A stretch of 64,000 nucleotides of DNA from a virus: positions 2,724 through 66,723 of IMG/VR virus record IMGVR_UViG_3300009183_000003; one strand, written 5' to 3'. The notes beneath the pieces were generated by a model, which ran no database searches, was not told the origin of the DNA, and was given only the letters and a program-made list of their open reading frames with translations. Of this stretch, positions 7,246 to 27,098 are shown piece after piece. The position numbers and the translations under genes are program-made. Each line of letters opens with the position of its first letter. The stretch's first letter is position 1.

Positions 7246-7623
7246 TTATAATCCAAAGTAACCTTGTGATTCACAATTTTTTGAATCTTCTACATCTGCC
7301 CAGTTCAAAGATCCATCCTCTACGAATCTTGGAGCAATAGCAAATTCTCTATTTGGTTCGTTATGAGATAGCATCATTATACCCTTGAATCTATTTTCCC
7401 ATCCTTGAGACATGATGTGTTCGAATTTCGGATTGTCTTTGTTCAGTTCATAGACGGCATCGTAGAAATCTATTCCTCCGAATATACCGTATCCTTCGTA
7501 ATCATCTTCGATGAACTTGTCTCCGTTAGGCATTAGCATTGTTACTTTTAACGCTCCTCTGCTAGAGTATGTGTTACTGATTGAGCGATTCGTATCGCTA
7601 GTTTTCCAAGAAAAAAATCCCAT
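7246..7623 (-). CDS. hypothetical early protein
   Basis: MGFFSW.T.D...YEGYG.FGG.D.Y motif. Confidence 0.7.
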   Translation of the reverse strand: MGFFSWKTSDTNRSISNTYSSRGALKVTMLMPNGDKFIEDDYEGYGIFGGIDFYDAVYELNKDNPKFEHIMSQGWENRFKGIMMLSHNEPNREFAIAPRFVEDGSLNWADVEDSKNCESQGYFGL

Positions 7624-19513: not shown

Positions 19514-20839
19514 TCAGGAATTTTTCTGTTCGTTAATTAGATTGCTTACCTCTTGAATTCTTTTTCCAATCCAAGCCATTACAGGTACAGCCATTGAGTT
19601 GCCAAGTGCTTTGTATCTTGGTCCATCGGGAGACTCTTCCTTTTTTCTGTATGGAATATTTGTGAAGTTGTCAGGGAATCCTTGAAGTCTCTCACACTCA
19701 ACAGGAGTAAGTCTACGAACCTTTGCATTTTGAATCGTACCACCTGTGTGATTGATATCTGAAGCGGAGGATGATAAGGTTTGAGATGTCTGCTCGTTAA
19801 TACTCATGTTGTACATATCAACGGCAATACTTTTTTCAGAAACAACTAAACCCCTTCCATCTGTCATATCTTGATTACAGAACCCTTTATAATCTCTCGC
19901 TTGTAAAGTACCTACTGTCTCAGAATCATTTGGCGGCAACCATTTGGTTTCTTCAAACAACCATTGATCCGGTGAGGTTGCAATGGTGAAAGACTTTTCT
20001 TCACTTCCAAGGTAACCCTTTCCTGCTGATTTACCAGGAACACCGCCTTGTATTCCCGAGTTCTCAGAAACACCGCCTCGTACTTTAAAACAAAGAGCAG
20101 TCTTTTCTTCGTTTTGAATCACAGCAGAGAAGTGTCCCTTGTCAGGCATATATTGGTCATGGCAACGAGTAGTTAAACTAGCGGCAGTTTGTCCTCCGTC
20201 CCACCATTCTCCTGACTCACTGTTGTCAATAACGCTTCCCTCAATCTCTCGGGTAACTTTTTGCCTCTTACTTCTGCTCTCCGCAATATTCCTGCACAGG
20301 CTTTCGGACTCAAATAGAACCGCTGCGGCAGGTCTCCAGTCTCCAAGATATCCGATAAGAAAGACTCTTCTGCGTCTTTGTGCAACTCCAAAGTGTTGAG
20401 CGTCAAGAATTCTGTAGGCGAACCCATACCCGAGTTCCCCCAACGCCCCGAGGAGGGAACCAAAATCTTTTCCTCCGTTACTTGACAAGACCCCGGGGAC
20501 ATTTTCCCAAACAATCCACTGGGGTTTTGCCTTGTCAGCAATGCGACAGAATTCAAGGGCCAAGTTGCCACGAGAGTCTTCCATTCCTTTTCTGAGACCT
20601 GCGACTGAGAATGATTGGCAGGGAGTTCCTCCAACAAGAACATCGATAGTTGTTTCATTAAATATAGGGTTTGAGTGAATTAAAGTCATGTCTCCAAGAT
20701 TTGGGGTTTGTGGGTAATGGTGTTGTAGCACAGCCGATGGGAAGGGTTCTATTTCAGAGAACCATTGTGGCTTCCATCCTAATGAGTGCCAAGCCATTGT
20801 AGCGGCTTCTATCCCCGAGCATACTGACCCGTACTTCAT
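19514..20839 (-). CDS. dcm: DNA (cytosine-5) methyltransferase
   Basis: Motif I SVCSGIEA, IV GGTPCQSFS, VI ENV, VIII QRRRRVF, IX RRLTPVECERLQGFP, X LGNSMAVPV. Confidence 0.95.
   Translation of the reverse strand: MKYGSVCSGIEAATMAWHSLGWKPQWFSEIEPFPSAVLQHHYPQTPNLGDMTLIHSNPIFNETTIDVLVGGTPCQSFSVAGLRKGMEDSRGNLALEFCRIADKAKPQWIVWENVPGVLSSNGGKDFGSLLGALGELGYGFAYRILDAQHFGVAQRRRRVFLIGYLGDWRPAAAVLFESESLCRNIAESRSKRQKVTREIEGSVIDNSESGEWWDGGQTAASLTTRCHDQYMPDKGHFSAVIQNEEKTALCFKVRGGVSENSGIQGGVPGKSAGKGYLGSEEKSFTIATSPDQWLFEETKWLPPNDSETVGTLQARDYKGFCNQDMTDGRGLVVSEKSIAVDMYNMSINEQTSQTLSSSASDINHTGGTIQNAKVRRLTPVECERLQGFPDNFTNIPYRKKEESPDGPRYKALGNSMAVPVMAWIGKRIQEVSNLINEQKNS
20173..20658 (-). CDS. overprinted alternative-frame ORF inside the MTase (EcoHK31I beta-like arrangement)
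   Basis: 161-aa same-strand nested ORF with LSDILE...P.RFYLSPKAC.GILRRA..RGK.LP..L..AL. Confidence 0.65.
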   Translation of the reverse strand: MKQLSMFLLEELPANHSQSQVSEKEWKTLVATWPLNSVALLTRQNPSGLFGKMSPGSCQVTEEKILVPSSGRWGNSGMGSPTEFLTLNTLELHKDAEESFLSDILETGDLPQRFYLSPKACAGILRRAEVRGKKLPERLREALLTTVSQENGGTEDKLPLV

Positions 20840-21302: not shown

Positions 21303-21812
21303 TTAGTGTTGAATGTTTAATTTAAAATATAACTCTCTGTATGCTTGTCTAGGTTGTGGGTATCCAAGCTCCTCCATCCTCTCAACAAAGTATTGGATAA
21401 CCATCCTATCTTTCCAAGATGTCTCCATCGTATTTTCAAACATCTTAATGCCGTGTAAAACAGTCCCATGTTTTTTATTTCCAAACTCATTACCAATACC
21501 CTCTAATGTTACAGGTAGTGTTTTATACATTATCCAATACACCAATTGCCTATAAAGGATATTTTCTCTCTTCCTGTTCTTTTCCCCTGTAGCGTTATAA
21601 ACTTTTACGGCAATATCTTTTACGAGGTCAATGTAGTTCCTCATGTTAGTGCCGATAGCAACATTGTGAATCACATGGCTAAACTTATCAGCCTCCTCTT
21701 TTAGTTGAGGTACATAGAGGATTAAATCACTAATGAATCTTTCCTTACGATCATTTGGCACATACTCTAGGATGTCTCCAAAATGAATCTTTTTTTCCGC
21801 TTGAACTTCCAT
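21303..21812 (-). CDS. DnaA domain IV (C-terminal HTH)-like DNA-binding protein
   Basis: RKRE....RQ...W......TL..IG..FG.K.H.TVLHG.K. Confidence 0.8.
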   Translation of the reverse strand: MEVQAEKKIHFGDILEYVPNDRKERFISDLILYVPQLKEEADKFSHVIHNVAIGTNMRNYIDLVKDIAVKVYNATGEKNRKRENILYRQLVYWIMYKTLPVTLEGIGNEFGNKKHGTVLHGIKMFENTMETSWKDRMVIQYFVERMEELGYPQPRQAYRELYFKLNIQH

Positions 21813-21827: not shown

Positions 21828-22247
21828 TTATTTGAGGTTATTAAAAATTTCTTGAACTTGTTCTAGTGTGTGTCGTTGAATAAAGTCCCAGTAAACGAAC
21901 TTGTACAGATTTTGAAAATATTTGTTCTTGTAACTTTGAGAGTTGACCGGCTTGTCGATGCCAAGTTCTTTACAAGTCCTCTTACTCGCTTTAGTTTTAA
22001 TTTCATCCTTTACTTCTTTATTGATAATGTTATTGTTTCGCAAATATCTAACATTCTTTTCACAAAATCCAAATAAAACTTCAACTATTTCAACATATTT
22101 TTTATCAACACAGATATAAACAGCCTCAATGTTTTCGTAAAACGCTTCTTTTGAACCTGTTAACTCCCCATCTTTCAGTTTAGTAATTGCAACTTGTCGA
22201 AGGCCATATTGAAAAGTGGGGTCAGAATGGTATGTCTTCGTCTTCAT
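21828..22247 (-). CDS. hypothetical protein
   Basis: 139-aa ORF overlapping the primase-helicase stop. Confidence 0.55.
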   Translation of the reverse strand: MKTKTYHSDPTFQYGLRQVAITKLKDGELTGSKEAFYENIEAVYICVDKKYVEIVEVLFGFCEKNVRYLRNNNIINKEVKDEIKTKASKRTCKELGIDKPVNSQSYKNKYFQNLYKFVYWDFIQRHTLEQVQEIFNNLK

Positions 22248-23967
22248 ATTCTTGTTGTCTTGTTTCGTACTCGTCTAATAATATTCCCTTACTATCATCT
22301 CCAATCTCTGAAAATCTTTTTGTCTTCACGTCATAAACAAAAGGAACTTCCCCAACTCGACCAATGAAGGACCAACGTATTTTCTGAATGTTGATGAGGG
22401 TTTGACCAGACACATAGTCTCTGTAAGCAACGAACCCATTGTCGCACTTGTTAAAGAAGTGAGCAGACCCTGCTATGTCGTAAAGTGTTGGCATAACATA
22501 CACTCCATTCTCCTTCCTGATCTTTGTAGGGTGTGCAATAACAAACACATGGACTCCGTAGCGGTCCTTGAATCGTTTAACCTTGGTGAGTGCCTCTGAT
22601 ATGTACTGCGTCTCACTCATTCCCTTTGGGACCTGGTGTTCGACATAGTTCCAAGGATCTATCACAAGGCAATTGATTCCACTTCTCTTTACAAGTTCTG
22701 CGGCTTTGTCTAGGATGCCGTCAATTGTTACATCCATCTCATCAATCTTCATGAAGTAGAAGAACTCTTCAACAAAGTCTCTTGCCTTATCAACTTCCTC
22801 TTGACTCATCTTTGCGGCAGGCACAAAAGAGAAGAAAGGCTTCCCAATAAATATTTCAGCAAGTTCAGAAAAAAGTATCTCTGTGGGTTGCTTTTCTGGG
22901 GAAAACATTGCTATCTTCCACGAATGTTTCGCAGACAATCTGACAAGTAAATTGTTCAGAAAAGTTGACTTTCCTGCGTTGGGTGTTCCTGTAATAATGG
23001 TGAACTCTGAGCCTCGAAACGAGATATGTTCATCAAACTGATTAAACCCTGCTTTCAGCCCATGAGGAAACCCGTTAAGATATATGTCCGTTATTTTTTC
23101 CTTTACGTCATTTACCTTCTCAATGCCTTCTATTGGAATTTGGTAGGCTTCGGCTACAACCTTCTGAAGAAGCTCTACTCCGTAATTAACTAGAATTTCA
23201 TTAGCGTCCTTGCATCCATCAGGTATATTAACATACCAAATCTTTTCTCTTCCTAGTCTTCGGGTTAACTCCTCACGAAGAGATAAACCTGCTGAGTCAT
23301 TATCTGTAAAAATGATTACCTTATCCTTGTCGGCAAATGCGTCAATGCAGTTGTCTAAATATTTAAGGTTCTGATTTCCTTTCGTTGCCCCGTTAGGAAC
23401 GCTTACGACAGGGTAAATTTGAGCTTCCTCCAAAGAGAGGGTGTCCATTTCACCTTCAACGATTACACACCAATCATAGCCCTCTATGGAGTTCAGGTTA
23501 TAGAGTATCAACTCAGCATCCTTCACCATACGAAAGTTCTTTGCCGCATCTCTGTACTTGATGTTAACCAAGTCACCTCCTCGGAAGTAATTAAAACATA
23601 TGGCGTTTCTGTTCTCTCCAGCTTGTGGGAAAAAACATTCCTCCTCAGTAACTTTGAGTTTCAGCAAGGTGTTGTTGGATATTCCTCTCTTCTCAAACCA
23701 AGAGAGGACCTTGTCGCTCACCTTCTGAAGTTTTGATACGGGGACAAAGTATTCAACCTTTCGGTCCGACTTGTTTACGCTCTTCCCCATAAACGATTCA
23801 CAGTTTGGGTAGTGGCACTTGTACACTCCTAACTCGACATTTACAGATAGACTCTTGTCCTTCTTGTTACTTCTCGTGTCTTTGCAGAACGGACAGTTTA
23901 CTTTTTGTTGTGCCGAGATATCCTTGCAGACAATTCCAAGGGCAGATAATTTTTGGTAGTTGCTCAT
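22222..23967 (-). CDS. primase-helicase (T7 gp4/Twinkle-like)
   Basis: Zn finger CPFC...CHYPNC, TOPRIM VEGEMD and TDND.AG, Walker A GTPNAGKST, Walker B LVIDP, AHP.K, acidic EDIPF tail. Confidence 0.95.
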   Translation of the reverse strand: MSNYQKLSALGIVCKDISAQQKVNCPFCKDTRSNKKDKSLSVNVELGVYKCHYPNCESFMGKSVNKSDRKVEYFVPVSKLQKVSDKVLSWFEKRGISNNTLLKLKVTEEECFFPQAGENRNAICFNYFRGGDLVNIKYRDAAKNFRMVKDAELILYNLNSIEGYDWCVIVEGEMDTLSLEEAQIYPVVSVPNGATKGNQNLKYLDNCIDAFADKDKVIIFTDNDSAGLSLREELTRRLGREKIWYVNIPDGCKDANEILVNYGVELLQKVVAEAYQIPIEGIEKVNDVKEKITDIYLNGFPHGLKAGFNQFDEHISFRGSEFTIITGTPNAGKSTFLNNLLVRLSAKHSWKIAMFSPEKQPTEILFSELAEIFIGKPFFSFVPAAKMSQEEVDKARDFVEEFFYFMKIDEMDVTIDGILDKAAELVKRSGINCLVIDPWNYVEHQVPKGMSETQYISEALTKVKRFKDRYGVHVFVIAHPTKIRKENGVYVMPTLYDIAGSAHFFNKCDNGFVAYRDYVSGQTLINIQKIRWSFIGRVGEVPFVYDVKTKRFSEIGDDSKGILLDEYETRQQEYEDEDIPF

Positions 23968-24698
23968 ATTTTATTGAAAAATCCTTTTTCAGCTTTGTTT
24001 ATTTCATCTTGAGTTTTGAAGTGTGTGCTTCCAAATACATCTCTCACCTTGATTTTTTCCTCTTTAATCTTATTCTCTTCCTTAAACCAAACGTGCATCT
24101 TGAGTCTCCAATTCCTGACGGGAGATCCACTCTTGTCATGCCAGTTGCCATCGGTGTAGTAATTAAACGCTTTGATAGCGGCATCCTCCCTGTAACCCTT
24201 ATCTCTAAAAAACATCTTCACTTCTTCTACAGTAGGTGGCACAAAACTATTTTTCGGTTTTTTTGCCAATGTATCTATATTAGTATTTGTATTAATATTA
24301 GTATTTGTATTAGTGTGTCTTTGTATAGGCATACTCTGACCGAGGTCGGCAAATCCCGATGTCGGCTTTTCCCGAATGTCGGGTTCCGTTAATGTCGGTT
24401 CTTCGTATACAATATGATTCCACCCCTTGAATACTTTTGTCTGTGGGTCAATAACTTTTACGCTAAGAATATAACCTTTCTCTTGGAGTTGTTTAAACAC
24501 ACGATCTATAGCCCCCTTAGACTCATTTGTTTTTTCGGGAAGACTTTTTTTGTAAAGCACCCAATCAATGGGCAGGCTTAATAGATAAACAAGTAATCCC
24601 TTCTCTTCAATTGTTATGGAGCAATCCTGTAACAACTTGTTGCTTAACATGGTGAAGGCTTTCTCAGATTTAGCTCTAACGATTTGTCCTGTGTTCAT
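23964..24698 (-). CDS. phage replication initiator/replisome organizer (N-terminal wHTH)
   Basis: FT...N.LL.D..I....KGLL.YLLS.P.DW, NTNTNIN linker, F.PPT.EEV...W....G....NW. Confidence 0.8.
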   Translation of the reverse strand: MNTGQIVRAKSEKAFTMLSNKLLQDCSITIEEKGLLVYLLSLPIDWVLYKKSLPEKTNESKGAIDRVFKQLQEKGYILSVKVIDPQTKVFKGWNHIVYEEPTLTEPDIREKPTSGFADLGQSMPIQRHTNTNTNINTNTNIDTLAKKPKNSFVPPTVEEVKMFFRDKGYREDAAIKAFNYYTDGNWHDKSGSPVRNWRLKMHVWFKEENKIKEEKIKVRDVFGSTHFKTQDEINKAEKGFFNKI

Positions 24699-24712
24699 AA
24701 TATTTTAGTGAT

Positions 24713-24810
24713 AAAAATGCCCCGAAGAACAGGGAGGTAGAGGACTCACCTATTCAACAGGGCTAGTATTTGTTTATTTTGTCGGCCTCTACTCCAACGA
24801 AACAAAGATA
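24713..24810 (-). promoter_or_regulatory. promoter plus structured 5' leader (attenuator-like) of the replication operon
   Basis: TATCTTTG 24803-24810; hairpin 24719-24763 plus U tract; 5' GGAGUAGAGG complementary to CCUCUACCUCC. Confidence 0.65.
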
Positions 24811-24817
24811 ATAAAAA

Positions 24818-25033
24818 TTACGCTGCTCTCCAAACACGAACTCCACCATCCGTTGATCGGGCAGTTAGTTCGTATTTCTTTTTCTTCTTTTGGTAGAAAA
24901 GTTTAGCAAGGTATTTTGATGTTTCTCCAGGAACAAAGAAAGAGTCTCCTACTTCCATCTCCGGTAAAACATATTCGGTTTTTCTACCTCTCCCACTTGT
25001 GCTTGGGATTGGTATATTTTTATCTACGTTCAT
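24818..25033 (-). CDS. small putative DNA-binding protein
   Basis: K.IPIP....Y....MEVGDSFFVP....GVRVWR; promoter at 25057-25064 on the minus strand. Confidence 0.7.
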   Translation of the reverse strand: MNVDKNIPIPSTSGRGRKTEYVLPEMEVGDSFFVPGETSKYLAKLFYQKKKKKYELTARSTDGGVRVWRAA

Positions 25034-25169
25034 TTTTGTTGTGTGTTAATTCTTCGCAAATATACATTATACAAATCAAAATCCTAATAATATTTTATAA
25101 ACAACAATGTTAAAAACTATTTGAAGAACCTTTCAATATAATTTATACATTTGTGAAAATTATATAACA

Positions 25170-25508
25170 ATGAACATTAAAGGAAAAATCAAATCGGTAG
25201 GCAGCACCGAACAAAAGAGTGCCAAATTTTCTGTTAGAACATTTGTCCTAGAACTAGAGGGTAAGTACCCGGAGTTAGTAGAGTTCCAATTAGTAAATGA
25301 CAACACACTCCTAATCAACCCATTCTCATCAGGGGACGAAATCGAAGTCGAGTTCAACCTGAAAGGAAGGGAGTACAACGGAAGAGTCTACAACTCTCTC
25401 CAGGTTTGGAAAATAACAGGGGAATCAAAACCAAAAAATGAATCCACACCAAAAGCAGAAAGTCCGCAGGGAGAATCTGAAAAGTCAGAGGAAGACCTCC
25501 CCTTCTAA
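25170..25508 (+). CDS. ssb: DUF3127-family single-stranded DNA-binding protein
   Basis: F..R.FVL....KYP....FQ......GD.IEV.FNL.GRE...YNSL..WKI and acidic EDLPF tail; promoter TACATTTG 25146-25153. Confidence 0.85.
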   Translation: MNIKGKIKSVGSTEQKSAKFSVRTFVLELEGKYPELVEFQLVNDNTLLINPFSSGDEIEVEFNLKGREYNGRVYNSLQVWKITGESKPKNESTPKAESPQGESEKSEEDLPF

Positions 25509-25517
25509 TATAAAAAC

Positions 25518-25545
25518 AAAGTCCCCCTTATTTAGGGGGATTTTT
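25518..25545 (+). terminator. intrinsic terminator
   Basis: TCCCCCT-TATTT-AGGGGGA followed by TTTTT. Confidence 0.75.
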
Positions 25546-25569
25546 GTATTTTTGGATAAAATTAACAGT

Positions 25570-25923
25570 ATGTTCTTTAAGTCCAAGAAAAGAAGAGAAG
25601 AGGAAGAGGATGATAAAAAACCTCTTCCAGTGCTTTGCAGTACCGTCTGCGTAGTATGGAACACCGAAGAAGAAATTGAAGGCAATCCTGGTCAAGGGCT
25701 ATACGCTGAATATGTGCCTATAATATTTGATATAACCAAAGTTGCTGCTATACAAGCAGACGTGGAGTTTCGTAACGATGGTTCAGCGTCTATAGGTTCA
25801 AGAACTTTAGTGTACATTATTGGATCAACAGACCCTCTGATTATTGACGCTCCGTATAAATCGTTTTTAGAATATTTTACACTTTTAAAATCTAACGAGT
25901 TTCATAACAACGCAAACTACTAA
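25570..25923 (+). CDS. FlbD-like hypothetical protein (start revised to ATG 25570)
   Basis: FDITKVAAIQ....TLVYI.G.....IDAPY..F; promoter TATTTTTG 25547-25554. Confidence 0.55.
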   Translation: MFFKSKKRREEEEDDKKPLPVLCSTVCVVWNTEEEIEGNPGQGLYAEYVPIIFDITKVAAIQADVEFRNDGSASIGSRTLVYIIGSTDPLIIDAPYKSFLEYFTLLKSNEFHNNANY

Positions 25924-25940
25924 GTCTTTAAATCAGCTAT

Positions 25941-27098
25941 ATGACAATCCAAAAACTAGTACAGATACTCCACGCTAGACCAGGTTACTTAAAGTCAGGT
26001 CCAAGTTATATAGCAAGAAAATTTAAGGTTAGTCTACAAGATGCTACCGCAGCTTTAAAAGCCGCAAGAGTAGATAGAAAACAAGTTAATAGAAAGGTTG
26101 TAAAGGTTGAGTTGTCCAATGATTCTGATAATGTTATAACCGAGTTCGAACAGTATTTAGATAAAAATGGTATTGACCACTCGATGGTTAATTCTGTTAA
26201 ATACTGGCAAAATATGAAAGGAGAACAAAGGTTCTCTGTAGTAACCAAAAGTGACAGAAGAGCAGAAGAGATTCAAAAAGACATTGAAGAGTTTGCGGCT
26301 AGTTATAGTCCTAAAGCTAGAGTAATAACTAAAGGTAGAAGACCTGACTACAAAGTGAAGTCAACTTTAGAAATTTCTCTTCCCGATATTCACTATGGAA
26401 AGTTAACAGATATTACACTAGAGGAAATGGAAAAACAATTCCTTGATACAATTGAGGACTTAGTTAATAAGGGAAGAGGTTTAAATATTGAAAGAGTTCT
26501 GCTACCAATCGGAAACGATGGAATGAATACAGATGGCATGAGAATGGCTACAACAAAAGGCACTCCTCAGCATGATGTAATCGGATGGAAAGAATCATTT
26601 AAAGGTTACTGGACTTTAATAGTTAGAGCAGTAGATTTCTTAAAAGATGTAGCTCCAGTTGATATAATTGTTGTATCGGGGAACCATGACTACGAAAGAA
26701 TGTTTTATGCCGGAGATGTTTTAGCAGGTTGGTATCGTAATGATCCAAATGTTTCTGTAGACAACTCCACAATGCCTAGAAAATATTATAAGTACGGAAA
26801 AAACATGATAATGTTTACTCATGGAGATAATGAGAAGCCTTCTGATATGCCACTAATAATGGCTACCGAGCAACCGGAAATGTTTGCGTCAACTGAGTTT
26901 AGAGAAGCTCATTGTGGTCATTACCATAAAGAACAAGTAAACGAATACCGAGGTGTTAAGGTGAGATTCCTCCCTTCAATATGTGCGTTAGATGAATGGC
27001 ATAAAAAAATGGGTTACCAAGCACTAAGAACAGCCCAGGCGTTTATTTGGAACCATGACGAGGGCCTTGAAGGATATTTACAGAGTAATGTTAAATAA
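25941..27098 (+). CDS. calcineurin-like metallophosphoesterase
   Basis: PDIHYG, GND...D, GNHD, THGD, GHYH motifs. Confidence 0.9.
   Translation: MTIQKLVQILHARPGYLKSGPSYIARKFKVSLQDATAALKAARVDRKQVNRKVVKVELSNDSDNVITEFEQYLDKNGIDHSMVNSVKYWQNMKGEQRFSVVTKSDRRAEEIQKDIEEFAASYSPKARVITKGRRPDYKVKSTLEISLPDIHYGKLTDITLEEMEKQFLDTIEDLVNKGRGLNIERVLLPIGNDGMNTDGMRMATTKGTPQHDVIGWKESFKGYWTLIVRAVDFLKDVAPVDIIVVSGNHDYERMFYAGDVLAGWYRNDPNVSVDNSTMPRKYYKYGKNMIMFTHGDNEKPSDMPLIMATEQPEMFASTEFREAHCGHYHKEQVNEYRGVKVRFLPSICALDEWHKKMGYQALRTAQAFIWNHDEGLEGYLQSNVK

What the first reader, a model, noticed from the sequence alone, without database searches (positions are those of the whole stretch)
24713..24810. Switch-like leader controlling the initiator/primase operon
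Seen on the minus strand: right after the TATCTTTG element the RNA begins with GGAGUAGAGG (24795-24786). About 45 nt later CCUCUACCUCC (24743-24733) forms the loop and part of the 3' arm of a long hairpin (GCCC..GAAUAGG-UGAG / CUC-CCUGUUC..GGGGC) followed by AUUUUU, just before the initiator ATG. The two pairings compete or form a pseudoknot. Inference: terminator/antiterminator or antisense-type control of replication, reminiscent of plasmid rep leaders and P1/P4 C4/CI control, in an apparently lytic phage.
Basis: partly seen in the sequence, partly recalled or inferred. Interest (0 to 1): 0.7.

Follow-up and report, generated by a model that had tools for sequence, protein, structure and literature searches.

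The report
Kissing-loop leader RNA before phage replication genes
Just upstream of this phage's replication genes lies a short structured RNA in which a small hairpin loop base-pairs with the loop of a stop-signal hairpin; dozens of related phages keep this pairing under different sequences, so it looks like a previously undescribed control element for phage DNA replication.

Summary
On the minus strand a Bacteroidota-type promoter (-7 box 24810-24803) is followed by hairpin H1 (24798-24781), an A-rich linker, and a long hairpin H2 (24763-24719) with a U-tract. This ends 14 nt before the ATG (24698) of a DnaD-like initiator, which is followed by a primase-helicase.

The H1 loop (GUAGAGG) is complementary to the H2 loop (CCUCUAC). 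Relatives keep this loop-loop pairing under about 25 different sequences:
- 63 of 80 distinct loci score at least 6 nt, against 2 of 269 other terminator-like hairpins.
- Cross-locus pairings reach 6 nt in 11 of 2292 cases.

The pairing stays within the loops, so it is a kissing-loop pseudoknot. Rfam 15 has no match.

The element is present once per genome and always heads the replication operon. It does so even where the initiator cassette is swapped (four types) or a homing-endonuclease-like gene is inserted.

The best reading is a promoter-proximal attenuator or leader RNA of about 86 nt. It would gate transcription into the initiator/primase genes and a probable origin inside the initiator gene, with the kissing contact tuning termination or RNA stability. 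The structure is shown; the mechanism is inferred. No RNA ends could be observed. A trans-acting, allele-specific role remains possible.

The parts
24803..24834 (-). Bacteroidota sigma-A type promoter: TTTG (-33) ... TATCTTTG (-7 box, 24810-24803). Predicted start is G24798, the first base of H1.
   Evidence: Pattern match. The -7 box alone is not enriched in the window (82 found, 70.6 expected). However, a TAnnTTTG or near-match lies 2-14 nt upstream of H1 in nearly all relatives (read by eye). The box spans -12 to -5 relative to the start site according to passages of PMC9723704.
24781..24798 (-). H1: 5-bp hairpin GUUGG/CCGAC with the 8-nt loop AGUAGAGG.
   Evidence: MFE fold. H1 pairs covary: all 6 pairs show changes on both sides in 24 sequences.
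24786..24792 (-). Kissing segment 1, GUAGAGG, in the H1 loop.
24764..24780 (-). 17-nt A-rich single-stranded linker.
   Evidence: Unpaired in the MFE. Linkers are 12-25 nt in relatives (read by eye). By my own geometric estimate this is long enough for an intramolecular kiss.
24719..24763 (-). H2: long imperfect hairpin (5' arm 24763-24745, loop UCCUCUAC 24744-24737, 3' arm 24736-24719).
   Evidence: MFE fold. All 16 pairs are paired in 97.5-100% of cells with many compensatory changes. Frequent U-G/G-U pairs place the structure on the sense strand. The arms are 89-100% identical within the window's clade, where flanking genes are 68-98% identical.
24737..24743 (-). Kissing segment 2, CCUCUAC, in the H2 loop.
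24713..24718 (-). A + U5 tract after H2. Together with H2 this has the form of an intrinsic terminator.
   Evidence: The terminator-like scan picks up the inner stem plus T-run. A run of 5-9 U follows H2 in relatives.
23964..24698 (-). 244-aa replication initiator (DnaD-like / O-like winged-helix type), first gene after the leader. It carries internal repeats at about 24278-24398 that look like an origin.
   Evidence: PHROG 186 (2.2e-14) and PHROG 428 (6.7e-12); no Pfam hit. Repeats.
22222..23967 (-). 581-aa primase-helicase (Toprim + DnaB_C), overlapping the initiator's stop codon.
   Evidence: Pfam DnaB_C 7.1e-13 and Toprim_2 1.6e-10.

Best explanation
This is a cis-encoded structured leader RNA of the phage replication operon. 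Host sigma-A polymerase starts at or next to the first base of H1 (predicted G24798). The nascent RNA folds H1. After a 17-nt A-rich linker it makes the long hairpin H2 and a U-tract, which together have the form of an intrinsic terminator ending 14 nt before the initiator ATG.

The H1 loop docks on the H2 loop through a 7-bp kissing helix, giving a compact pseudoknotted RNA of about 86 nt. No promoter lies between the U-tract and the ATG. All transcription of the initiator, the primase-helicase and the probable origin inside the initiator gene must therefore read through this terminator, which makes the element an attenuator by architecture.

I infer that the kissing contact sets how often polymerase stops there, how long the short RNA survives, or both. 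That in turn would set the supply of initiator and the transcription across the origin.

Shown: the anatomy, the strand, the covariation of H1, H2 and the loop-loop helix, the single copy per genome, and the constant position at the head of the replication operon.

Inferred: transcription start, termination, the direction of the kissing effect, and any signal that modulates it.
For: Fold and significance.

Covariation of all three helices. G-U pairs fit only the sense strand.

Specificity of the loop-loop match:
- 41 of 50 leaders reach at least 6 nt, against 11 of 2292 cross-locus pairs.
- 63 of 80 distinct loci do so, against 2 of 269 other terminator-like hairpins in the same loci.
- 36 of 36 sequences found through the H2 arms alone, with the 8 loop letters left free, carry a 7-nt complement upstream.

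The kissing helices are 6-8 bp with 3-5 G-C pairs and duplex energies of -5.8 to -10.8 kcal/mol. This is the size range of known kissing complexes (recalled).

Promoter position. U-tract.

Position at the operon head:
- The element precedes the initiator in all clades.
- It stays at the operon's 5' end when a T5orf172/GIY-YIG-like or HNH-like gene is inserted.
- It stays there when the initiator cassette is one of four different types.

Copy number: one copy in each of 4 complete or near-complete genomes.

A cultured Flavobacterium phage (MT497075) has the same layout, with UGAGAGC/GCUCUCA loops.
Against: - No RNA 5' or 3' ends were seen. The only public runs holding relatives are kept as contigs, so neither transcription start nor termination is demonstrated.
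- A kiss that leaves the terminator stem intact has no obvious way to switch termination. No conserved alternative (antiterminator) pairing and no conserved ligand-like core were seen.
- The -7 box by itself is not enriched in the window.
- The window's U-tract is short (5 U after an A), so the terminator may be weak.
- Within the window's clade the H2 arms are far more conserved than pairing alone requires. This points to an unidentified sequence-specific partner that the model does not explain.
Confidence: 0.55

Rival explanations
1. Trans-acting, allele-specific regulator. The terminated leader, or a processed H2 hairpin, accumulates and uses one loop to kiss the complementary loop of nascent leaders from other genome copies or from co-infecting relatives. 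This would change their read-through. The result would be copy-number feedback or an RNA-level incompatibility or immunity between phages, as with P4 CI RNA, P1/P7 C4, plasmid kissing-loop control, or Gifsy-1 IsrK acting on its own read-through mRNA.
For: - H1 and the H2 loop vary while the H2 arms are frozen. In the window's clade H1 is 50-67% and the H2 loop 50% identical in the GUCGCAG-allele relatives (83-89% and 75% in GUCGAGG), while the arms are 89-100% identical.
- Four alleles (GUAGAGG 11, GUCGAGG 8, GUCGCAG 16, GUAGCAG 1 of 36) sit on one scaffold. The three common ones occur with all four initiator types, like independent specificity modules.
- There are precedents for a leader-derived RNA acting on its own operon: passages of PMC4825925 on IsrK and P4 CI. 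A terminator loop forms a kissing complex in OxyS, per passages of PMC11979758.
Against: - Both partners sit 45 nt apart in one RNA, so the intramolecular kiss should outcompete any trans partner unless the RNA is processed. No evidence on processing exists.
- The allele pattern is also explained by mosaic recombination with a breakpoint between promoter and H1.
- The 7-mer is not enriched in the window (6 found, 4.9 expected). No allele-matched second site was found in three other whole genomes.
- No lysogeny genes were found.
Confidence: 0.2
2. Stand-alone stable small RNA. The promoter-to-terminator unit is an sRNA gene whose compact kissing fold is the product, for example a protein-binding or decoy RNA. 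Its place before the initiator would be a matter of timing only.
For: - It is a complete promoter-hairpin-terminator unit of about 86 nt.
- Strong sequence conservation of the H2 arms beyond pairing needs suggests a sequence-specific partner.
- The element is independent of initiator type.
Against: - In every locus examined it lies directly at the 5' end of the replication operon, with no room for a separate promoter downstream. Whatever else it does, it gates that operon.
- Outside the window's clade the H2 sequence is free to vary with compensation.
Confidence: 0.12
3. The 5' segment GGAGUAGAGG pairs with the loop plus the 3' arm of the hairpin (CCUCUACCUCC) and so competes with terminator formation (antiterminator/terminator).
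For: In the window's allele the loop pairing can be extended by GGA/UCC across a bulged C.
Against: - Across distinct leaders the contiguous complement is 6-8 nt and ends at the loop borders: 7 nt in 26, 8 in 10 and 6 in 5 of 50, with one flanking base allowed.
- Other clades show no extension. For example, L052 (GUUGCAG/CUGCAAC) is flanked by non-complementary bases.
- H1 and H2 stems are themselves kept by compensatory changes.
Confidence: 0.06
4. DNA-level element. The hairpins form in single-stranded or cruciform DNA at or near the origin, and the loop complementarity serves replication rather than RNA.
For: - The probable origin repeats lie only 300-420 nt away, inside the initiator gene.
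- The cumulative GC skew has its minimum at 24-26 kb.
Against: - Many U-G/G-U pairs would be A-C mismatches on the other strand.
- A conserved promoter lies just upstream and a conserved U-tract just downstream.
- The leader stays constant while the initiator cassette, which carries the probable origin repeats in the window-type initiator, is swapped.
Confidence: 0.04

Closest known systems
Promoter-proximal intrinsic terminators / attenuators before phage operons (lambda tR1 before cII-O-P; pR'-tR' giving the short 6S transcript until Q acts). Recalled textbook knowledge; Q read-through is described in passages of PMC4825925.
   Same: A terminator is placed between a promoter and the genes it serves, so expression needs read-through. 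Here it stands before the replication genes, as tR1 does in lambda.
   Different: In this element the terminator loop is base-paired to an upstream hairpin loop. No nut/qut-like site or antiterminator protein was identified. Host and promoter type are Bacteroidota.
P4 CI RNA (seqB pairing with seqA/seqC) and P1/P7 C4 RNA
   Same: Complementary segments lie within one leader transcript of an operon that includes replication or antirepressor genes. The complementarity differs between relatives. In P4 the outcome is premature termination before the replication genes (as summarised in PMC4825925).
   Different: Those RNAs are processed from the leader and act in trans in lysogens. Here nothing shows processing or trans action, no lysogeny genes were found, the pairing is loop-to-loop, one partner is the terminator loop itself, and no Rfam model matches.
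Kissing-loop control of plasmid replication (ColE1 RNA I/RNA II; R1 CopA/CopT; pT181/pIP501 attenuation). Recalled.
   Same: Loop-loop helices of 6-8 bp sit in front of replication functions. Loop sequence defines specificity. In pT181/pIP501 the read-out is a leader terminator.
   Different: Those systems use a countertranscript from an antisense promoter. Here both loops are on the sense RNA, and no conserved antisense -7 box exists.
Gifsy-1 IsrK
   Same: One promoter gives both a short terminated RNA and a read-through mRNA of a phage operon, and the short form acts on the long form (PMC4825925; abstract and passages).
   Different: IsrK works by long alternative helices that free a ribosome-binding site, not by a loop-loop contact with its terminator. 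There is no sequence relation.
phi29 pRNA (recalled)
   Same: Two loops of one phage RNA are complementary to each other, and they covary among related phages.
   Different: pRNA loops pair between molecules to build a ring on the packaging motor. pRNA is not a leader of replication genes, and no Rfam model matched at all.
Riboswitch aptamers with loop-loop contacts (purine L2-L3; guanidine-II). Recalled.
   Same: A kissing or loop-loop tertiary contact lies in a 5' leader that ends in a terminator.
   Different: In riboswitches the kiss is inside the aptamer and a conserved ligand pocket exists. Here the terminator loop is the partner, and few positions outside the stems are conserved.

Membership tests
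Intrinsic (factor-independent) terminator used as attenuator | G+C-rich hairpin directly followed by a U-tract | tested here: met
   H2 has a GCCC/GGGC base, then A+U5 in the window and U5-U9 in relatives.
Intrinsic (factor-independent) terminator used as attenuator | Lies between the promoter and the first gene, with no promoter in between | tested here: met
   The -7 box is at 24810-24803, the U-tract ends at 24713, the ATG is at 24698, and no TAnnTTTG lies between them. In relatives the gap between U-tract and start codon is mostly 0-20 nt (up to 37, L144/L148).
Intrinsic (factor-independent) terminator used as attenuator | RNA 3' ends at the U-tract, with partial regulated read-through | not testable with these tools
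   Public runs holding relatives are kept as contigs only, with no ends.
P1/P7 C4 and P4 CI type leader-derived immunity RNAs | Sequence/structure match to the described family | tested here: not met
   Rfam 15 gave only chance-level hits to unrelated families (E 4.4 and 5.4) in the window region and none at E<=1 in 12 diverse loci. That Rfam holds a C4 model is recalled, not checked.
P1/P7 C4 and P4 CI type leader-derived immunity RNAs | Complementarity between segments of the same leader that covaries among relatives | tested here: met
P1/P7 C4 and P4 CI type leader-derived immunity RNAs | Processing of the RNA from the leader and action in trans in a lysogen | not testable with these tools
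   No RNA data. No tyrosine or serine recombinase in the complete genome, which speaks against lysogeny but does not exclude it.
Countertranscript (antisense) control of replication genes (ColE1, R1, pT181, pIP501) | Antisense promoter giving an RNA complementary to the leader | tested here: not met
   22 of 29 leaders have no reverse-strand TAnnTTTG between -100 and +500, and 0 of 29 have one with a -33 TTTG. Promoters of other types were not tested.
Countertranscript (antisense) control of replication genes (ColE1, R1, pT181, pIP501) | Loop-loop (kissing) recognition of 6-8 bp | tested here: met
phi29-type pRNA | Match to the pRNA model and association with the packaging motor | tested here: not met
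   No Rfam hit. The element heads the replication operon.
Riboswitch | Conserved ligand-binding core, unpaired and sequence-invariant across clades | tested here: not met
   Invariant columns are limited to the H2 base and the U-tract. Loops and linker vary. Absence of a pocket cannot be proven from sequence.

The most novel reading that the evidence does not exclude
The leader is an RNA 'identity tag' for the replicon. The short terminated RNA, or its H2 half, acts in trans through its loop on nascent leaders. Phages with the same loop allele would then cross-regulate each other's replication genes while phages with another allele escape. This would be an RNA-based incompatibility or superinfection-interference system in virulent Bacteroidota phages. 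Its interchangeable specificity alleles (at least 4 on one scaffold, about 25 in the family) reassort freely with four initiator/origin cassettes.
Probability: 0.2. Interest if true: 0.85.

Novelty: new variant of a known kind. Interest (0 to 1): 0.68.

Why it matters
Structured leader RNAs that control phage DNA replication are known from a few model systems, all from Proteobacteria or Firmicutes and their plasmids. This element is widespread in uncultured freshwater, marine and wastewater Bacteroidota phages. All 80 distinct initiator-linked loci examined come from phage-like contigs, and the element is present in at least 63 of them. It has unusually clean covariation, matches nothing in Rfam 15, and uses an architecture I could not find described: a 5' hairpin kissing the loop of the operon's own terminator.

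It offers three things:
- A direct handle on how these phages time or limit expression of initiator and primase, and transcription across a probable origin.
- A natural set of about 25 orthogonal 6-8-bp kissing pairs on a common scaffold, useful for RNA engineering in Bacteroidota.
- A test case for whether loop-loop specificity drives interference between co-infecting phages.

A cultured phage-host pair with the same layout exists (Flavobacterium phage vB_FspP_elemoA on Flavobacterium sp. BAL314), so the questions can be tested directly.

Tried and rejected
- Rfam and tRNA/tmRNA scan: nothing.
- DNA search of the phage collection with the 1.7-kb region: no match.
- RNA evidence: three coded runs hold 5-8% of the sampled words, all as contigs. 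They show diverged relatives (about 85-97% alike) only and no RNA ends. One 7266-nt contig keeps the leader and primase but has other sequence in place of 24036-24712.
- Trans targets:
  - The loop 7-mer occurs 6 times in the window against 4.9 expected.
  - One copy at 7317(-) sits in a weak hairpin inside an ORF (z -1.5). Its gene has a DNA homologue in only one of four related genomes, and that genome has the same allele, so this was uninformative.
  - In three other whole genomes the allele 7-mers show no shared allele-matched site. One site shared by G001 and G002 lies in a gene absent from the other two genomes.
- Iteron copy in the leader: the 10-mer ACAAAUACUA of the linker recurs twice in the AT-rich repeats of the initiator gene. 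However, shared 9-mers arise in about 80% of shuffled leaders (234 of 300 for the window), and the leader persists with swapped initiator cassettes. I rejected it as a general feature.
- Leader peptide: an ATG in the linker of some clades opens a short frame that ends at the initiator ATG (read by eye). It is absent from the window's clade, so rejected.
- Antisense promoter: not conserved.
- First automated permutation script: it mis-centred H2 apices and was replaced.
- MAFFT alignment of all classes: structurally unreliable, so I used a covariance-model alignment instead.
- Literature: six searches found no description of this element. PMC10690425 lists over 10,000 candidate structured RNAs from IMG/VR. 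Its main text does not mention this element. Its supplementary tables could not be read and may contain it.

Full report
**What is in the window.** All coordinates below are read on the minus strand.
- A 71-aa ORF (25033-24818) is a partial DUF7303 match.
- It is followed by TTTG-N20-TATCTTTG (24834-24803).
- Next comes a 5-bp hairpin H1 (24798-24781, loop AGUAGAGG), then a 17-nt A-rich linker.
- A long imperfect hairpin H2 follows (24763-24719, loop UCCUCUAC), then A+U5 (24718-24713).
- The ATG at 24698, 14 nt further on, opens a 244-aa protein.

PHROGs place the 244-aa protein with DnaD-like helicase loaders and replication initiation proteins (2.2e-14 and 6.7e-12). The next gene is a 581-aa Toprim + DnaB_C primase-helicase.

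The leader folds as H1 plus H2 at -31.7 kcal/mol. Shuffles average -20.3 (z -3.74), and 0 of 200 fold as well. The window belongs to a complete 66,723-bp virus record with terminal repeats. No tyrosine or serine recombinase was found in it.

**The key observation.** The seven loop bases GUAGAGG of H1 (24792-24786) are the exact complement of CCUCUAC in the H2 loop (24743-24737). I fetched relatives of the initiator from viral contigs: 34 loci, then 147 relatives of which 80 were kept. I also fetched 2 Bacteroidia MAG contigs. I read their upstream regions.

The same layout recurs: promoter, small hairpin, linker, long hairpin, U-tract, start codon. The loop sequences differ and remain complementary. 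Examples:
- GUCGCAG/CUGCGAC
- GUAAGAG/CUCUUAC
- GUACGAG/CUCGUAC
- GUGGAAG/CUUCCAC
- GUUGCAG/CUGCAAC
- GUCGGAU/AUCCGAC
- CCGUACA/UGUACGG
- GAGUCAG/CUGACUC

One class has an extra middle hairpin and 8-bp pairs (AGAACCAC/GUGGUUCU in some members, AGAGCAAC/GUUGCUCU in others).

**Statistics.**
- Window's clade (12 sequences): 98.3% of cells pair. The kissing helix is 100% paired, with 3 of 7 pairs changed on both sides. Sliding the partner by 1-3 columns drops pairing to 40-51%.
- I built a covariance model from that alignment. It found one copy in the window (103.7 bits) and copies in more distant loci.
- Model-made alignment of 24 sequences: 93.8% of cells pair against 68.9% in shuffles (0 of 500 reach it). 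26 of 29 pairs change on both sides. The kissing helix is 86.1% paired. Its unpaired cells come from four rows whose 6-bp kiss is shifted by one column, an alignment effect visible.
- Strand: abundant U-G and G-U pairs mean the structure exists only on the sense strand.
- Cross-locus control: the loop-loop complement reaches at least 6 nt in 41 of 50 distinct leaders. When H1 loops are paired with H2 loops of loci carrying another allele, it does so in 11 of 2292 cases.
- Scan without pre-selection: 63 of 80 distinct loci have, within 720 nt upstream of the initiator, a terminator-like hairpin whose loop matches an upstream hairpin loop by at least 6 nt. Only 2 of 269 other terminator-like hairpins in the same loci do.
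- The 17 misses in that scan:
  - 9 score 5 because the MFE closes two extra pairs inside H1. By eye their complement is 7 nt.
  - 5 have a more complex H2.
  - 2 (L073, L103) pair by eye.
  - 1 (L089) shows nothing.
- The helices are 6-8 bp with 3-5 G-C pairs and duplex energies of -5.8 to -10.8 kcal/mol.

**What the pairing is not.** The complement ends at the loop borders: 7 nt in 26, 8 in 10 and 6 in 5 of 50 leaders, with one flanking base allowed. H1, H2 and the loop-loop helix are therefore compatible, and the fold is a kissing-loop pseudoknot. I saw no conserved alternative pairing that would unzip the terminator.

No conserved antisense promoter exists. 22 of 29 leaders have no reverse-strand -7 box between -100 and +500, and none has one with a -33 element.

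**Context.**
- The -7 box TAnnTTTG spans -12 to -5 in flavobacteria (passages of PMC9723704). This puts the start at G24798, the first base of H1. In relatives H1 begins about 1-11 nt after the predicted start (read by eye).
- The box alone is not enriched in the window (82 found, 70.6 expected). Its weight comes from its conserved position.
- There is no room for a promoter between the U-tract and the start codon, so the operon depends on read-through.
- Where another gene separates leader and initiator, the leader stays upstream of the inserted gene. Inserted genes are T5orf172/MUG113 (GIY-YIG-like) or HNH-like.

I then searched viral contigs with the H2 arms only, leaving the 8 loop letters free. 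This returned 35 loci. With the window that makes 36, and 36 of 36 carry a 7-nt complement upstream. They comprise four alleles:

| Allele | Count of 36 |
|---|---|
| GUCGCAG | 16 |
| GUAGAGG | 11 |
| GUCGAGG | 8 |
| GUAGCAG | 1 |

Behind these near-identical leaders stand four different ~245-aa initiators. All hit replication-initiator PHROGs, and their N-termini are unalike. All are followed by the same primase-helicase. Each of the three common alleles occurs with all four initiator types. A 7266-nt contig of a public run shows the same swap, with breakpoints at 24035 and 24713.

The leader therefore belongs to the operon, not to a particular initiator. This argues against an initiator-specific RNA operator. 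Each of four complete or near-complete genomes has one copy.

A cultured Flavobacterium podovirus, vB_FspP_elemoA_1-9A (MT497075), has the same arrangement: TATCTTTG, an 8-bp H1, UGAGAGC/GCUCUCA loops, and a U6 tract. Downstream are a 75-aa ORF, a replication protein and a primase/helicase.

**Probable origin.** Inside the initiator ORFs, 300-420 nt from the start, most of the 29 loci examined carry two or three 16-nt-spaced palindromic repeats of the CCGACAUCGG type. AT-rich 18-nt repeats follow them. In the window these lie at about 24398-24278. The cumulative GC skew has its minimum at 24-26 kb, although divergent transcription starts there too. Read-through of the leader would therefore also drive transcription across a likely origin. 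This is an inference.

**Mechanism.** The best-supported reading is a promoter-proximal attenuator whose short product is a compact pseudoknotted RNA. The kissing contact would tune termination efficiency and/or the stability of the RNA (confidence 0.55).

Several things are not shown: the RNA ends, termination itself, the direction of the effect and any modulating signal. The public runs hold relatives only as contigs.

The main rival is trans action with allele specificity (0.2).
- For it: H1 and the H2 loop are the variable parts of an otherwise frozen scaffold. H2 arms are 89-100% identical where neighbouring genes are 68-98% identical, while in the GUCGCAG-allele relatives H1 is 50-67% and the H2 loop 50% identical (83-89% and 75% in GUCGAGG).
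- Against it: that pattern is equally explained by mosaic recombination with a breakpoint between promoter and H1. The cis partner should win any competition. No second allele-matched site exists in the genomes examined.
- The frozen H2 arms point to a further, sequence-specific partner that I could not identify.

**Known relatives.** Rfam 15 has no matching family: only two chance-level hits (E 4.4 and 5.4) in the window region and none at E<=1 in 12 diverse loci. Six literature searches found no description. PMC10690425, a survey of candidate structured RNAs in IMG/VR, does not mention the element in its main text, and its supplements were closed.

In logic the element resembles several known systems:
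- terminators placed before phage replication or late genes;
- the leader-derived RNAs of P4 and P1 (P4 as summarised in PMC4825925; P1 recalled);
- plasmid kissing-loop control;
- IsrK acting on its own read-through mRNA;
- the kissing terminator loop of OxyS (PMC11979758).

It fails the testable membership criteria of each named family. I therefore file it as a new variant of the leader/attenuator kind.

**Caveats.**
- Many contigs come from related samples, so rows are not independent events. Counts of distinct alleles (about 25) are the safer measure.
- Promoter assignment rests on a consensus and its conserved position.
- Several distances and some loop calls were read by eye from printed sequences.

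Noticed in passing
window 24278-24398 (inside the initiator ORF, minus strand); same place in L007, L008, L024, L033, L042, L052, L072, L090, L093, L094, L103, L111 and others: Two or three 16-nt-spaced palindromic repeats (CCGACAUU / CCGACAUCGG type), followed by AT-rich 18-nt tandem repeats (AAUACAAAUACUAAUAU x2), lie 300-420 nt into the initiator gene in most of the 29 loci examined (all with the window-type initiator). This looks like an origin of replication embedded in the initiator gene, as in lambda O.
   Followed up: partly
L133, L136, L139, L142, L144, L151, L156, L157, L160-L163, compared with window 23964-24698: Four different ~245-aa replication-initiator cassettes, with unlike N-terminal DNA-binding parts and a shared C-terminal PHROG 15768, sit between a near-identical leader and the same primase-helicase. 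This is replicon-module swapping with breakpoints at the leader's U-tract and near the initiator's 3' end.
   Followed up: partly
L031, L067, L136, L139, L151 and others, between leader and initiator: Small T5orf172/MUG113 (GIY-YIG-like) or HNH-like genes are inserted between the leader and the initiator gene in some relatives. These are probably homing endonucleases using this junction.
   Followed up: partly
window 24000-26000: The cumulative GC skew has its minimum here, and leftward and rightward gene blocks diverge at 25033-25170. -7 boxes sit on both strands (25064-25057 minus, 25146-25153 plus).
   Followed up: no
L025, L027, L029 upstream of H1: In this clade an extra hairpin plus T-run (AGAGGG...CCCUCU + U7) lies between the -7 box and H1, so the leader would have to pass two terminator-like hairpins. 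Unexplained.
   Followed up: no
window 25518-25544: A strong hairpin (CCCCC..GGGGG) flanked by T-runs on both strands looks like a two-way terminator, lying within the overlapping 112-aa (DUF3127, ends 25508) and 161-aa (25438-25923) + strand ORFs.
   Followed up: no
window 19514-20839 and 21303-21812 (minus strand): The replication block also encodes a 441-aa C-5 cytosine DNA methylase (3e-60) and a 169-aa protein with a DnaA C-terminal helix-turn-helix (6.3e-10).
   Followed up: no
window 7300-7340 (minus strand): A second GUAGAGG lies in a small hairpin inside a 125-aa ORF. The fold is not significant (z -1.5) and the gene is missing from relatives with other alleles, so this is probably chance.
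   Followed up: yes
window 24764-24773 compared with 24281-24290 and 24299-24308: The 10-mer of the leader's linker next to H2 equals the core of the AT-rich repeats inside the initiator gene. Shared 9-mers are common in shuffled leaders, so this may be chance.
   Followed up: partly
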